NCBI RefSeq assembly: GCF_004010195.1
Contig: NC_057755.1
Location: forward strand, 1,601,306-1,665,305
Source: Chiloscyllium plagiosum
Lineage: Eukaryota
Reading direction: 5' to 3'
Length of the DNA: 64,000 nt
Each line of letters opens with the position of its first letter. The first letter of the stretch is position 1. The notes beneath the pieces were generated by a model, which saw only the letters and a list, made by a program, of their open reading frames with translations, ran no database searches and was not told the origin of the DNA. The translations under genes were made by a program, and so were the position numbers. Below, piece by piece: positions 45,560 through 59,592 of this stretch.

Positions 45560-46188
45560 TGAGGATCTTAAATCTGAATTTAGGCTGTAGTCAGGAGCTA
45601 CGATTTAGTACACGTCGTTTCGAACAACAAAATGGCTTCTTAATGCAAGTAACATAATGTAACATAACAAAATGGCTTCAAGGCTGCAAATTCACAATTC
45701 CGTTTAAAATGGCTTTGCACTCTGCTGAAAGCTGCATTCCTAAACTCACTGAACCAAAGATTAGCAGATAATGCTTCCTTCACAGTATCGAATTAACTAA
45801 GTTCTGTAAGACACTACGAACCTAACTGACCTCGGAACCGCAGGTGCCAAAAGATAAAATGTGCAAAACACTGTTAGTTCCCAGGAAATATCATTGGCTT
45901 AAGCTGATGTCTATATTGTCATTCTATTACAGCTTATTTGACTTCCTCTGCAATTAAGGTTGCACTATCCTTTAAGAACCATATAAATATTGCCTTTGTT
46001 TTAATCCATTTTTGCGCAGCTTTCTCCAAGGACCACAGAAGTATTTAAGTTCTGTGTTGCTGAACAAAATGTGCCCAGCCGACATAAAGAAAAAAAACTG
46101 TTTCATCTTGCTGTGTCAGACCGAACTGTGAGTGTTTATTTGACCAATCGCAGAAATGAGGGGCCCCTCCCTTGGTTGGAGATAGTCA
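45560..46188 (+). repeat. ERV 5' LTR
   Basis: Starts TGAGGATCT and ends AGATAGTCA (imperfect terminal inverted repeat). TATA-like atataaata at 45981. Aligns with the 3' LTR (14 differences in a ~138-nt block counted by eye, more elsewhere). Confidence 0.88.
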
Positions 46189-46190
46189 TC

Positions 46191-46208
46191 TGGTGCCGTG
46201 ACTCAGTA
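46191..46208 (+). promoter_or_regulatory. Primer-binding site complementary to tRNA-His
   Basis: TGGTGCCGTGACTCAGTA versus the expected TGGTGCCGTGACTCGGAT; first 14 nt identical. Starts 2 nt after the LTR CA end. Confidence 0.88.
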
Positions 46209-47019
46209 CAGTACGGACGGATTCTGGACAGCAATGTGAGACGCAAGAGTCCTCGACTATTGAGTGTTGAGGAATCAGCCAACTAGACGTGAGTATTTCA
46301 TATCCATCTGGTTTTCCTCTCATCCAAGTAATGGGTGACCTGACCATTCACTGTCTATCGTCTAAATCTACCCCTTAAATGATCGGTCTTGGTAATAATA
46401 GGGTCGAGGACCCGTGACAAAGCCATCAGGTCAAAGACCTGCGGATCAGAAACCCTAAAAAAAAGGGAAGGAAGAAAGGAAGAAAGTAAAATTTAAAAAA
46501 TGTCGAGGACCTTTATGGAGTCGGGAAAAGGAAAAGGGGGATCGAGGACCAGGAAGTCAGGGACTTCCATGGACAGGTCAGGGATGTGTACAAGAAAGGG
46601 GTCTTCCATTAACTATACATAGAGTCATAGAAATGTACAGCACGGAAACAGACCTTTCGGTACAATCTGTCCATGCCGACCAGCTATTTCAACCCAATCT
46701 AGTCCACCTGACAGCACTTGGCCCATATCTTTCCAAACGCTTCCTGTTCATATACACATCCAAATGCCTTTTAAACCTTGCAATTGTACTAGCCTCCACC
46801 ACTTCCCCTGGCACTTCATTCCATACTCGTACATAAAAAATGTTGCATAAAAAAGTTGCCCCTTAGGTCTCTTTTCAATCTTTCTCCTATCACATTAAAA
46901 CTATGCCCTCTAGTTCTGCATCCTCCACCATAGGAAAAAGACTTTGTTTATTTATCCTTTCCACACCTCTCATAATATTCTAAACCTCTATAACATCACC
47001 CTCATCTCCAGCGAAAACA

Positions 47020-47175
47020 TAGCTGAAAAATGTGTTGCTGGAAAAGCGCAGCAGGTCAGGCAGCATCCAAGGAGCACCTTTTGCAGCGCAGCAGGTCAGG
47101 CAGCATCCAAGGAGCACCTTTTGCAGCAACACATTTTTCAGCTCTGATCTCCAGCATCTGCAGTCCTCATTTTTT
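47020..47175. mobile_element. Small fold-back Penelope-terminus/MER6-like insertion in CR1
   Basis: 13-bp TSD tccagcgaaaaca (47007-47019 and 47176-47188). Inverted repeat agctgaaaaatgtgttgctg / cagcaacacatttttcagct enclosing a 40-bp tandem duplication. Confidence 0.85.
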
Positions 47176-57047: not shown

Positions 57048-57206
57048 GGTGGATGCAGCTGCCAAGCAGGCAGCCTTACACCCCAAATCTCTGGTCGCAT
57101 TGGGTCCACAGCAAAGCCCGGTTAGACACAGTATAATGGCGGGGATGCTAGGTCTAGGTAAGATAGAGAACTCACAGGGAAACCACCCTGCTGAAGACCA
57201 CAAACT

Positions 57207-58846
57207 ATGGCTTCAAATAGGGTATTCCTTCGATACTCAAACCAAAATATGCGTGACCCCTGTTGGGCAAGCTTCATTTCATTCTTTGCTGCTGCCTTTT
57301 TTAGTTCATTATGTGCATTTTGTTCACACTTGGGCAGGGAGAGAATGGCGTATACTCTATAACAATGGATACTCCGCGGCCCTCAACCCCGATGGCAGCG
57401 TCCAAAATCGTGGATAATTCTACAAACAAAACAACAAATCAGTATATATTAGCAGATCTTCCTTTTCCCGGACAAATGCCACCCCTACAGCTGATAAGGT
57501 CGCCTGACACCTCTATCATTGCAAGGTCATCAGACGAGTGTCTTGAAAAGGGGGGAGATGATGTTGCCCAGCTGTGTGGACTCGTCATTGCTAGCACCGG
57601 TGTTCAAGAAGGGACTGTTTTCCCGTGTGATCCTGAGCAATCAGGACTGTGTATCATTTATGCGGAATACATGTCCTTGCGTGCCGAGAGACCAATCCTT
57701 CGATGTGTAGAATTCTACCAAGAATGACTTTCCCAATGGTCAACTGCATCAAAAAGATTGGACAGTTCATTTATAGAACAAGTCTCAATGGACTTTACTT
57801 TGTCAAAGTGCTGTCTGCCAGTTTGATCTCAGTTGTGCTAAAGGGCGACCCTGGTAGGCCTTACTTATTCAAATAGCAAGCGCTACAAGACAGAAAAGGG
57901 GAGATGTTATCTTTCACGACCAATTTGTTTCTCCAAAGTCATAATAAAATATTTGGCAGGGATGAAGTGGTTTGTTAAGGACTTGACTTCAGCAAACGAC
58001 TCTTTGATTCTTTTCACCTTCCCGAATCCCAGCGAAGGAGTATGGAACTCCAAGCACTCAGGACAGCCGTACCTTTTAGCTATGGACTGCCCATATGTTC
58101 AGGGATGTCACAAAGACAGGCCTGCTTCTTATTAGGAAGCTTCCTCCATTATCTACGGTAAAACTGTTTGCATTTTGTTCAGCCAATGCAAAGCAACCAA
58201 CTCCCTTGTCCTTAAAGAAACAGGTACTCCCCGTGCTGTAGCTGGAGGAACTCTTATTTTTATGACTACTGTTCTCTGTCCAATTACCTGGGAATGGGAT
58301 TGGAGTTTCGCTGCCAAACGTTCAGTCTCACCTGATTTTTGCATCCGTTGGAGGAATGCTAAGGCTTTGGGCACCACTAAGACTCACTCTCTCGGGTACC
58401 CATTTCTTCGTCCATTTTTCTTAGGATGGTCTTTAGGAATGTTTAGCCATCACAACTAAAATGATCCCATTTGCGGTCTCACCGTCTTTGGAAATGAGAC
58501 AGCTGCTGCTCTGGAAGGAATTAAGGACTTGTTTTCAGAAGTGTGCTTATCTTCCTCACAAAACCAGAACACACGCGACTACGTATTCGCAAAAGAAGGT
58601 GGAGTTCGCACCATAGTCAAAGGCAAATCCTTCATGACAGTCACTGACCTCATCGAGAATATTACCAGGCCTGTAGATAACATCTGCACCTTCGTCAGCC
58701 AAATGACTGAAGGTGCAGCATGGGGAGATTGTGGTTTCAGCTCATGGTACAACTGGTTGATAAGTCTGGCTATGTGTGCTGTTATCTTTTCAGTTGATCT
58801 TTTTGATGGCATTACTATTGATAAATGTATTATTGCGAGCTACTAA
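57207..58846 (+). pseudogene. env: ERV env remnant with filovirus GP2-like/alpharetrovirus-like TM subunit
   Basis: Hydrophobic signal-like stretch ~57265-57340, Cys-containing SU fragments, cleavage-like AAKR|SVS at 58310-58330. TM 58322-58846 is in one frame with one stop: C...ICGLTVFGNETAAAL...QNQNTRDYVFAKEGGV (decayed immunosuppressive domain), decayed CX6CC, NIT sequon, then a hydrophobic membrane anchor. The start is approximate. Confidence 0.85.
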
Positions 58847-58951
58847 TTTCTAATGACAGCATTGGATTCCCCCTGCTACCCACCCGGAAATGCTTCTTTT
58901 CCATTCAGATGAAGATGAGGAGGTGCAATTGCCTACCCCTTCTTCCTCCCC

Positions 58952-58967
58952 GGAGGAGAAGGAAAGA
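58952..58967 (+). promoter_or_regulatory. Candidate polypurine tract
   Basis: GGAGGAGAAGGAAAGA followed directly by TG, at the position predicted from 5' LTR length. The next ~50 nt align poorly to the 5' LTR. Confidence 0.6.
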
Positions 58968-59592
58968 TGGCAGTGTCTGACGTCCATTCAGTTGGACCAA
59001 TCTAGTCTATGCCCTCACATCACTTACTGACAACAAAAATGGCTTCTTAATGCAAGTAGCATAAAATAACATAACAAAATGACTTCTCGGCAGCGAATTG
59101 ATAATTCTGTTTAAAATGGCTTTTCACTCTGCTGTAAGCTGCATTCATAAACTCACTGAACCAAAGATTAGCAGACATGCTTCCTTCACATTATGGAATT
59201 AACTAAGCTAGATAAGACATTACGAACCATCTTAACTGACCTTGGAGATGTAGGTGCCAAAAGATAAAATGTGCAATACAACGTTAGCTACCAGGAAACA
59301 TGATTGGCTTAAGCTGATGTCTATATTTTCATTCCATTACATTTTATTGGATTTGGTCTGTAATTAAGGCTGTGCACTTTGTTAAGAAACATACAAAAAT
59401 TGTCTTTGTTTTAAGCCATGTTGCGCAGCTTTCTCCATGGGACACAAAAGTATTTAACCTCTGTGTTACTGGACAACCTGTGCCCGGTCGATATAATAAA
59501 ACTGTGACATCTTGCTGAACCAGACCAAACTGCTAGTGTTTATTTGACTGATCGTAGAACCGAGAGACACCTCCCATGGGTCAAGATCTTCT
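58968..59592 (+). repeat. ERV 3' LTR
   Basis: Clear alignment to the 5' LTR from ~59017. AATAAA at 59495-59500. Ends AGATCTTCT followed by TSD CTCA. Confidence 0.85.

What the first reader, a model, noticed from the sequence alone, without database searches (positions are those of the whole stretch)
45560..59592. Complete proviral frame of a shark endogenous retrovirus: His PBS, 4-bp TSD, paired LTRs, empty site in the paralog
Seen: LTRs of matching length with TGAGGATCT/AGATxxTCA-like termini, CTCA TSD, PBS-His, candidate splice donor (gac|gtgagt, 46289) and candidate PPT. The left-arm paralog (~27370-27425) joins the two flanks without the element. Known: tRNA-His priming and 4-bp TSDs occur in epsilon/gamma-like retroviruses. 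Chondrichthyan ERVs are poorly sampled. Insertion order is palindrome, then ERV, then CR1, then PLEs.
Basis: partly seen in the sequence, partly recalled or inferred. Interest (0 to 1): 0.7.

Follow-up and report, generated by a model that had tools for sequence, protein, structure and literature searches.

The report
Decayed shark retrovirus, Ebola-like envelope
This is a broken old retrovirus insertion in a shark genome, shared with a related species, whose envelope gene resembles the Ebola-virus fusion protein and likely belongs to a shark virus lineage already described, so it is a well-bounded new example and not a new kind of thing.

Summary
The provirus is real. Confirmed: 5' LTR 45560-46188 (12 other contigs start at exactly 45560), His primer site (15 of 18 bases), CTCA duplication, donor-like GTGAGT, and an empty site in the inverted paralog. 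Both junctions also exist in a second species, and LTR divergence (K 0.18) is about 2.8 times the divergence between the two species. Two claims fail. The 3' LTR lacks the family's first ~64 bases, and the 'PPT' is a Glu-codon run in the env tail. The interior is not complete: no pol or capsid was detectable, and a CR1-type LINE and two Penelope-like inserts fill half the span. New here: a broken gamma-type env whose relatives with named hosts (8 of 15 hits) are all shark or ray proteins and whose family profile scores best on filovirus GP2, matching the cartilaginous-fish ERV ectodomains published as sister to filovirus GP2 (PMC11521997). The leader holds five GTC-nnn-GAC hairpins. Order inverted duplication, ERV, CR1, first Penelope holds; the second Penelope cannot be ordered against CR1. 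The scan noted other ERV families in this genome but no look-alike of this one. New member of a known kind; modest interest.

The parts
45556..45559 (+). left target-site duplication CTCA
   Evidence: sequence; one CTTA in the paralog
45560..46188 (+). 5' LTR, 629 bp, TG...CA, imperfect terminal inverted repeat (7 of 9)
   Evidence: 12 contigs of run X6 begin at 45560 with unlike flanks (agreement 0.46) and summed depth rises about 20- to 120-fold across it; end fixed by PBS
45982..45987 (+). TATAAA in the 5' LTR (TATA box or weak poly(A) signal; not resolved)
   Evidence: AATAAA is present only in the 3' copy at 59495
46191..46208 (+). primer-binding site for tRNA-His, 15 of 18 matches, 2 bases after the LTR
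   Evidence: published PBS-His sequence in PMC3253121
46289..46294 (+). splice-donor-like GTGAGT (use not shown)
   Evidence: the stretch around it is shared by 10-14 other contigs per DNA run
46249..46585 (+). leader with five GTC-nnn-GAC triloop hairpin motifs and two near matches; likely part of the packaging signal
   Evidence: 5 observed, shuffle mean 0.14, 0 of 5000 shuffles reach 5; any-palindromic-word control P = 0.0005; overall folding energy not unusual, z = -1.1
46618..52710 (-). near full-length CR1-type LINE inserted in the leader (5' end approximate; no TSD of 6 bp or more found)
   Evidence: Pfam RVT_1 E 1.6e-6, Exo_endo_phos_2 3.4e-4, GDSL esterase 0.006; 78-84% to other copies in the window; TSD search
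50725..52182 (.). Penelope-like insert 1, nested in the CR1 upstream of ORF1
   Evidence: internal repeats 50728-50834/50977-51083 and inverted 52060-52182; degenerate flanking duplication; GIY-YIG-like frame 51122-51406 recognised from memory, no Pfam hit
52715..53800 (+). gag-like 5' remnant: matrix-like frame from about 52967 (WPLGGT motif, recalled) and a proline-rich stretch; assignment is inference only
   Evidence: translation and low stop density; no database match
53800..56135 (.). unassigned interior where capsid and pol should lie; 54200-55400 is 29-32% GC and stop-rich in all six frames
   Evidence: no Pfam or PDB match
56145..57027 (-). Penelope-like insert 2 with candidate 9-bp duplication AAAATGAAC (56136 and 57028)
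   Evidence: 79% to 22462-23145; Penelope label from recalled motifs, no Pfam hit
57260..59026 (+). broken gamma-type env (start uncertain, 57260-57560): SU with stops and several frame changes, cleavage site before 58322, cysteine-flanked internal fusion loop, HR1 glycan site, ISD-like stretch, membrane anchor, tail in another frame
   Evidence: 15 relatives at E <= 0.001, best 1e-34; frame map; alignment; PDB matches
58952..58967 (+). purine run taken for the PPT; lies in the env tail as Glu codons
59026..59592 (+). 3' LTR lacking the first ~64 bases of the family LTR; ends TCT
   Evidence: junction bridged with 0 differences in a second individual, X4 record 20, 58641-59081
59593..59596 (+). 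right target-site duplication CTCA
27402..27405 (-). empty target site (CTTA) in the paralogous arm of the inverted duplication

Best explanation
This is a single, long-dead retroviral insertion, bounded by two LTRs and a 4-base duplication, in one arm of an older inverted duplication, and it likely comes from a tRNA-His-primed class I-like shark retrovirus whose gamma-type envelope likely belongs to the cartilaginous-fish lineage published as sister to filovirus GP2. Shown: boundaries, PBS, TSD, empty paralogous site, env homology, presence at the same site in a second species, other family copies. Inferred: the RNA was primed by tRNA-His, packaged through the leader hairpins, spliced from the 46289 donor to express env, and integrated with a 4-base stagger; after fixation the copy lost most of gag-pol and the PPT plus the start of the 3' U3 by deletion, took a CR1 in its leader, a Penelope in that CR1 and another before env, and drifted neutrally. 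It can make no virus and no intact Env.
For: Family-defined LTR start at 45560 (12 contigs); PBS 15/18; TSD and empty site; env relatives: 15 hits, 8 with named hosts, all sharks or rays, 11 of 15 with Pfam Ebola-like HR1-HR2 and 10 of 15 with TLV_coat; family profile ranks 39 filovirus-type GP entries (best 84 bits) above syncytin-2 (49 bits) among 56 PDB matches; window TM alone gives the same ranking, best E 2e-4; organism B contigs cross both host-LTR junctions (X13 45330-45689; X13 59070-60400); divergences arms 0.29 and 0.33 > LTR pair 0.18 > species pair 0.065; class I human ERVs with 4-bp TSD and His primer are tabulated in PMC11905727.
Against: No pol, so the retroviral class rests on Env, PBS and TSD only. 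The window TM itself has no Pfam hit and lacks both cysteines of the relatives' post-ISD loop; the relatives show CX6C, not CX6CC. The filovirus-first ranking is partly biased: most retroviral TM entries in the PDB are short post-fusion fragments. No tree with filovirus or published shark ectodomains was built; the tree of 15 rows has no starred group holding the window row. 2.3 kb of interior is unexplained. LTR K 0.18 gives about 410 Myr at the shark rate assumed in PMC4422223, which is hard to accept, so absolute age is open.
Confidence: 0.8

Rival explanations
1. The element inserted already lacking capsid and pol: a non-autonomous, env-bearing derivative that carried AT-rich foreign (possibly host mRNA-derived) sequence and was copied in trans by a helper virus.
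For: The 53800-55400 stretch is 29-38% GC and unlike coding sequence; other env copies at about 82% identity exist in both species; earlier notes of this scan describe pol-less ERV offshoots with host cargo in this genome (unchecked); human ERV-Hako copies carry host 3' UTR pieces (PMC11905727).
Against: No RNA-binding or other host domain in six frames; no look-alike among earlier notes; copy number of this stretch was not measured; the copy also carries a clear post-insertion loss at the 3' LTR, so deletions do occur here.
Confidence: 0.2
2. The two LTRs come from different proviruses or LTR subtypes (recombination or conversion), and the 3' LTR really starts at TG 58968 behind the purine run, so LTR divergence does not date the insertion.
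For: A 16-purine run followed by TG sits where length matching predicts; in two relatives the Env frame ends in a KGGN/RGGN motif suggestive of overlap with a PPT (my reading); 6 contigs of X4 share the first ~38 LTR bases and then diverge, so LTR subtypes exist.
Against: The purine run and the next 30 bases align as Env tail in a Chiloscyllium protein whose frame ends only at about 58997; the family terminus shared by 12 contigs is absent; TSD and empty site fit one integration.
Confidence: 0.12
3. The element is a Gypsy- or BEL-type LTR retrotransposon that captured or happens to enclose a retroviral env.
For: No pol detected; TG...CA ends and short TSDs are shared with LTR retrotransposons (general knowledge).
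Against: Long PBS 2 bases after the LTR matching the HERV-H-type His site; env in the canonical place and orientation; published relatives sit among retroviral features (PMC11521997 section 11).
Confidence: 0.04

Closest known systems
Cartilaginous-fish ERV ectodomains sister to ebola-, marburg-, cueva- and dianlovirus GP2 (Nino Barreat and Katzourakis 2024, PMC11521997; passages, section 11 and supplement rows read)
   Same: Shark host; env ectodomain whose best matches are filovirus GP; retroviral context; Chiloscyllium among the hosts.
   Different: In the six ectodomain rows for sharks that I saw in supplement file 10 (4 Scyliorhinus, 2 Chiloscyllium) the LTR columns are empty; here LTR, His PBS, 4-bp TSD and an empty site are defined. 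Membership in their clade was not tested by tree.
Gamma-type Env with internal fusion loop (alpharetrovirus ALV type; PMC9967133 passages and section 17; bioRxiv 10.1101/2021.11.23.469661 passages and section 7)
   Same: Cysteine-flanked loop after the cleavage site, glycan site in HR1, ISD, membrane anchor.
   Different: Relatives show a CX6C loop without the third cysteine; this copy is broken by stops and frame changes.
Elephant-shark CmiERVs (Han 2015, PMC4422223; first 10,000 of 14,366 characters read)
   Same: Chondrichthyan proviruses with paired LTRs.
   Different: Their LTR divergences are 0.024 and 0.033 and they keep pol (SnRV-like or epsilon-like); this copy has 0.18 and no detectable pol.
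Class I ERVs with tRNA-His primer and 4-bp TSD (HERV-H PBS, PMC3253121 one passage; ERV-V and ERV-Hou, PMC11905727 passages)
   Same: Primer site and duplication length.
   Different: Mammalian hosts; no sequence relationship shown beyond PBS and distant TM similarity.

Membership tests
Endogenous retrovirus (provirus) | Two LTRs in direct orientation with TG...CA ends | tested here: inconclusive
   5' LTR complete; 3' LTR lacks its first ~64 bases and ends TCT
Endogenous retrovirus (provirus) | 18-base PBS just after the 5' LTR | tested here: met
   15 of 18 to published PBS-His
Endogenous retrovirus (provirus) | 4-6 bp target-site duplication and an empty pre-insertion site | tested here: met
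   CTCA both sides; one CTTA in the paralog
Endogenous retrovirus (provirus) | Polypurine tract directly before the 3' LTR | tested here: not met
   Candidate is env-tail coding; none at 59026. Likely lost with the LTR start.
Endogenous retrovirus (provirus) | env gene upstream of the 3' LTR, same strand | tested here: met
Endogenous retrovirus (provirus) | gag and pol in order | tested here: inconclusive
   Matrix-like motif only (recalled); no pol by Pfam or PDB; very decayed remnants could be missed
Class I (gamma/epsilon-like) ERV | RT groups with gamma- or epsilonretroviruses | not testable with these tools
   No RT in this copy, no genome held, no linked pol found
Gamma-type Env | ISD and heptad repeats in TM | tested here: met
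   Aligned to relatives carrying Pfam PF22307 and PF00429
Gamma-type Env | CX6CC (or its CXnC variants) after the ISD | tested here: not met
   Absent in this decayed copy; CX6C in most relatives, a variant listed in bioRxiv 10.1101/2021.11.23.469661 section 7
Cartilaginous-fish ectodomain clade sister to filovirus GP2 (PMC11521997) | Best similarity to filovirus GP ectodomain, in a shark or ray ERV | tested here: met
Cartilaginous-fish ectodomain clade sister to filovirus GP2 (PMC11521997) | Placement inside that clade in a TM tree | not tested
   Published sequences and filovirus rows were not in hand; one search holds relatives only
Gypsy/BEL LTR retrotransposon | Metaviridae or Belpaoviridae pol | not testable with these tools
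   No pol detected in the element

The most novel reading that the evidence does not exclude
This copy fixes the LTR, primer (tRNA-His) and 4-bp integration signature of the shark retrovirus lineage from which filoviruses may have taken GP2, and represents a pol-less, env-keeping satellite form that carried foreign AT-rich cargo and spread in trans before the two host species split; its LTR pair would give a shark-side calibration for the age of that Env clade.
Probability: 0.2. Interest if true: 0.5.

Novelty: new member of a known kind. Interest (0 to 1): 0.27.

Why it matters
Shark ERVs of this Env type are the published nearest retroviral relatives of the Ebola/Marburg fusion subunit, but the rows I saw for them carry no LTR coordinates. 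A copy with defined LTR, primer site, TSD, an empty paralogous site and an orthologue in a second species gives handles for collecting the family and a rate-free relative date (about 2.8 times the host species split, about 0.6 of the local duplication's age). The copy itself is dead and shows no sign of host use.

Tried and rejected
No genome was held, so no genome-wide BLASTN. Word-indexed protein searches found nothing for env, for the matrix-like frame among longer proteins or for pol-env fused predictions of 1132-3230 residues; all weak negatives. PDB searches of the matrix-like frame and of three frames of 55300-56140 gave only chance-level matches. Loci scans with the Env alignment found no relative in metagenome (69 pattern matches, 0 confirmed) or viral contigs (19, 0 confirmed). 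The language-model atlas gave no usable hit for the open frame 57305-57724 and gave no result for the matrix-like frame, which stays unassigned. EGF modules in the env N-terminus and an RBPMS2-type cargo, both leads from earlier notes, were not detected (Pfam). No tRNA or Rfam match in the window. No RNA holder listed; in one poly(A) run, 2% read, 81 reads were laid on 45330-46330 and none was 95% or more alike: not evidence either way. No loose end at 58968 was among the 24 of 1890 shown: not evidence. Whether organism B shares the 3' LTR truncation or the CR1 and Penelope inserts is not shown by the listed pieces. Absolute dating rejected: 41 to 411 Myr for rates 2.2e-9 to 2.2e-10 per site per year; PMC10587355 (passages) gives a per-generation rate only.
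Full report
Observation. The self-comparison shows direct repeats at 45624-46183 and 59030-59587 (82%) inside the right arm of an inverted duplication whose arms (23176-35253, 37655-63060) are about 70% alike. The left repeat runs from TGAGGATCT at 45560 to AGATAGTCA at 46188; two bases later comes TGGTGCCGTGACTC, found once in the window, matching 15 of 18 bases of the His primer site printed in PMC3253121 (one passage read). CTCA stands at 45556-45559 and 59593-59596. The reverse-complemented left arm aligns through both flanks with a single CTTA opposite the CTCA and a 12-base indel about 20 bases to the left; one copy of the 4-mer scores best (468.5, 465.5; both copies 454; LTR start moved to 45624, 373). 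GTGAGT is at 46289.

The left boundary is fixed independently. Laying contigs of public runs on 45330-46330, 12 contigs of run X6 begin at exactly 45560 with unrelated upstream sequence (agreement 0.46), summed depth climbs from 4 to 545 (X6), 25 to 1458 (X4) and 11 to 238 (X13) across it, and X4 record 10 (17 differences) runs from 45560 to 45655, tying the first 64 bases to the LTR core (only 24 of 372 loose ends and 24 of 986 pieces were shown).

What fails. The first 64 bases of the two repeats match at 15 of 64, and 32% of 2000 random segments score as well. So the 3' LTR starts only at about 59026-59030 and has lost the family terminus and, by inference, the true PPT. This is not an assembly error: X4, another sample, bridges 58641-59081 with no difference. 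The alternative, a second LTR subtype starting at 58968, is not excluded but unsupported.

Interior. 46618 to about 52710 is a minus-strand CR1-type LINE (RT, endonuclease and esterase hits). Inside it, upstream of ORF1, lies a Penelope-like insert (50725-52182) with a degenerate flanking duplication; a second Penelope-like insert (56145-57027) has a candidate 9-base duplication. The Penelope labels and the CR1 5' end rest on recalled motifs; Pfam gave no hit for the two Penelope frames. What remains is about 5.9 kb: a leader, a matrix-like frame from 52967 with a WPLGGT motif (recalled, no database support), a proline-rich stretch, 2.3 kb that I cannot assign (54200-55400 is 29-32% GC and stop-rich in all frames), and env. 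No capsid, protease, RT, RNase H or integrase was detected.

Leader. Overall folding energy is unremarkable (z = -1.1). A packaging role is inferred by analogy with retroviral leader hairpins, not shown.

Env. An unindexed search of 1.84 billion proteins gave 15 relatives (best E 1e-34). Eight have named hosts, all sharks or rays (Heterodontus twice, Chiloscyllium twice, Hemiscyllium, Rhincodon, Pristiophorus, Mobula); seven are unnamed. Eleven of 15 hit Pfam Ebola-like HR1-HR2 and 10 hit TLV_coat. The alignment shows a basic cleavage site, a cysteine-flanked internal loop, an N-x-T site in HR1, an ISD, a CX6C loop in most relatives (absent here) and a membrane anchor; these are gamma-type features as described in PMC9967133 (passages, section 17). 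SU and tail matches fall in three different frames and the gene holds several stops. Against the PDB the family profile ranks 39 filovirus-type glycoprotein entries (best 84 bits; some carry only a generic name and were recognised by me) above syncytin-2 (49 bits), with ASLV and MLV TM near 1e-5 (56 matches); the window's TM alone gives the same picture, weakly. Short post-fusion retroviral fragments bias this ranking. A tree of 15 rows puts the window row near the Hemiscyllium and Chiloscyllium rows without starred support, all on long branches.

Age and order. Organism A holds the stretch in 8 runs (3 possibly the source) and organism B shares 5-7% of words in 8 runs. Contigs of B cross the left host-LTR junction (19 differences in 360) and the right one (81 in 1331), so the insertion is orthologous. 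Four B pieces pool to 239 of 3825 differences (0.065 corrected); the LTR cores differ by K2P 0.181 +/- 0.020 over 556 sites; the duplication arms by 0.29 +/- 0.014 and 0.33 +/- 0.034. The insertion is thus about 2.8 times as old as the A-B split and about 0.6 the age of the duplication, if rates are equal. Absolute age spans 41-411 Myr over plausible rates and is left open. CR1 follows the ERV and the first Penelope follows the CR1 by nesting; the second Penelope follows the ERV but cannot be ordered against CR1. Other env copies about 82% alike occur in both species.

How it worked. Shown: ends, primer site, duplication, empty site, env kinship, shared locus, other copies. Inferred: tRNA-His priming, packaging through the leader, spliced env expression, 4-base staggered integration, then deletion of most of gag-pol and of the PPT with the U3 start, and passive accumulation of LINEs. 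Rivals are a pol-less satellite form with foreign cargo (0.2), a recombinant LTR pair (0.12) and a Gypsy or BEL element (0.04).

Known relatives and novelty. PMC11521997 (passages, section 11, rows of supplement files 8 and 10; file 9 unreadable, file 12 not searched, Fig. 6 not seen) reports ERV ectodomains in Chiloscyllium, Scyliorhinus, Amblyraja and Leucoraja as sister to ebola-, marburg-, cueva- and dianlovirus ectodomains (posterior 0.83); the six shark ectodomain rows I saw have empty LTR columns, but unseen material may give more context. bioRxiv 10.1101/2021.11.23.469661 (passages, section 7; supplements closed) reports gamma-type-Env ERVs in 6 cartilaginous fish. PMC4422223 (part 1 of 2) describes elephant-shark ERVs with LTR divergences of 0.024 and 0.033. 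PMC11905727, PMC4977317, PMC6001957, PMC10587355 and PMC4724089 were seen as passages only. I did not find this LTR or locus described, but my seven paper searches were not able to test that, and repeat libraries were not available. Earlier notes of this scan cover other ERV families in this genome; look-ups by sequence found no look-alike. Verdict: a real, decayed, well-bounded new member of a known kind; interest 0.27.

Noticed in passing
window 523-2679 (-): Open frame of 718 codons with stonustoxin helical, SNTX thioredoxin-like and two fibronectin-III domains: a stonustoxin-like gene, probably one large exon.
   Followed up: no
window 23176-35253 and 37655-63060: Old inverted duplication, arms about 70% alike; both arms hold a broken rhodopsin-family GPCR (7tm_1 E 3e-6 for 25252-26600; GPR139-like by recall).
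   Followed up: partly
window 45873-46000, run X17: About 60 poly(A)-library reads, all under 95% alike, match the LTR sense strand and 11 run into a poly(A) tail at the place of 46000: a related LTR elsewhere may supply a polyadenylation site.
   Followed up: no
window 45560-45598, run X4: Six contigs share the first ~38 LTR bases and then diverge, and summed depth peaks at 45568-45669 and 45874-45941: several LTR subfamilies share blocks.
   Followed up: no
window 45624-45680 and 59030-59086: Short tandem motif ACAAAATGGCTTC twice near the U3 start, kept in both LTRs; the 3' LTR loss ends at the first copy.
   Followed up: no
window 57545-57560: GAAAAGGGGGGAGA followed by TG, a textbook-looking PPT motif, lies near the env start rather than before the 3' LTR; probably chance.
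   Followed up: no
window 47045-47127: Perfect 40-base tandem duplication in a short insert within the CR1, partly alike to 4136-4283.
   Followed up: no
window 21394-21893: A run of 500 N (assembly gap or masked stretch) just left of the duplication.
   Followed up: no
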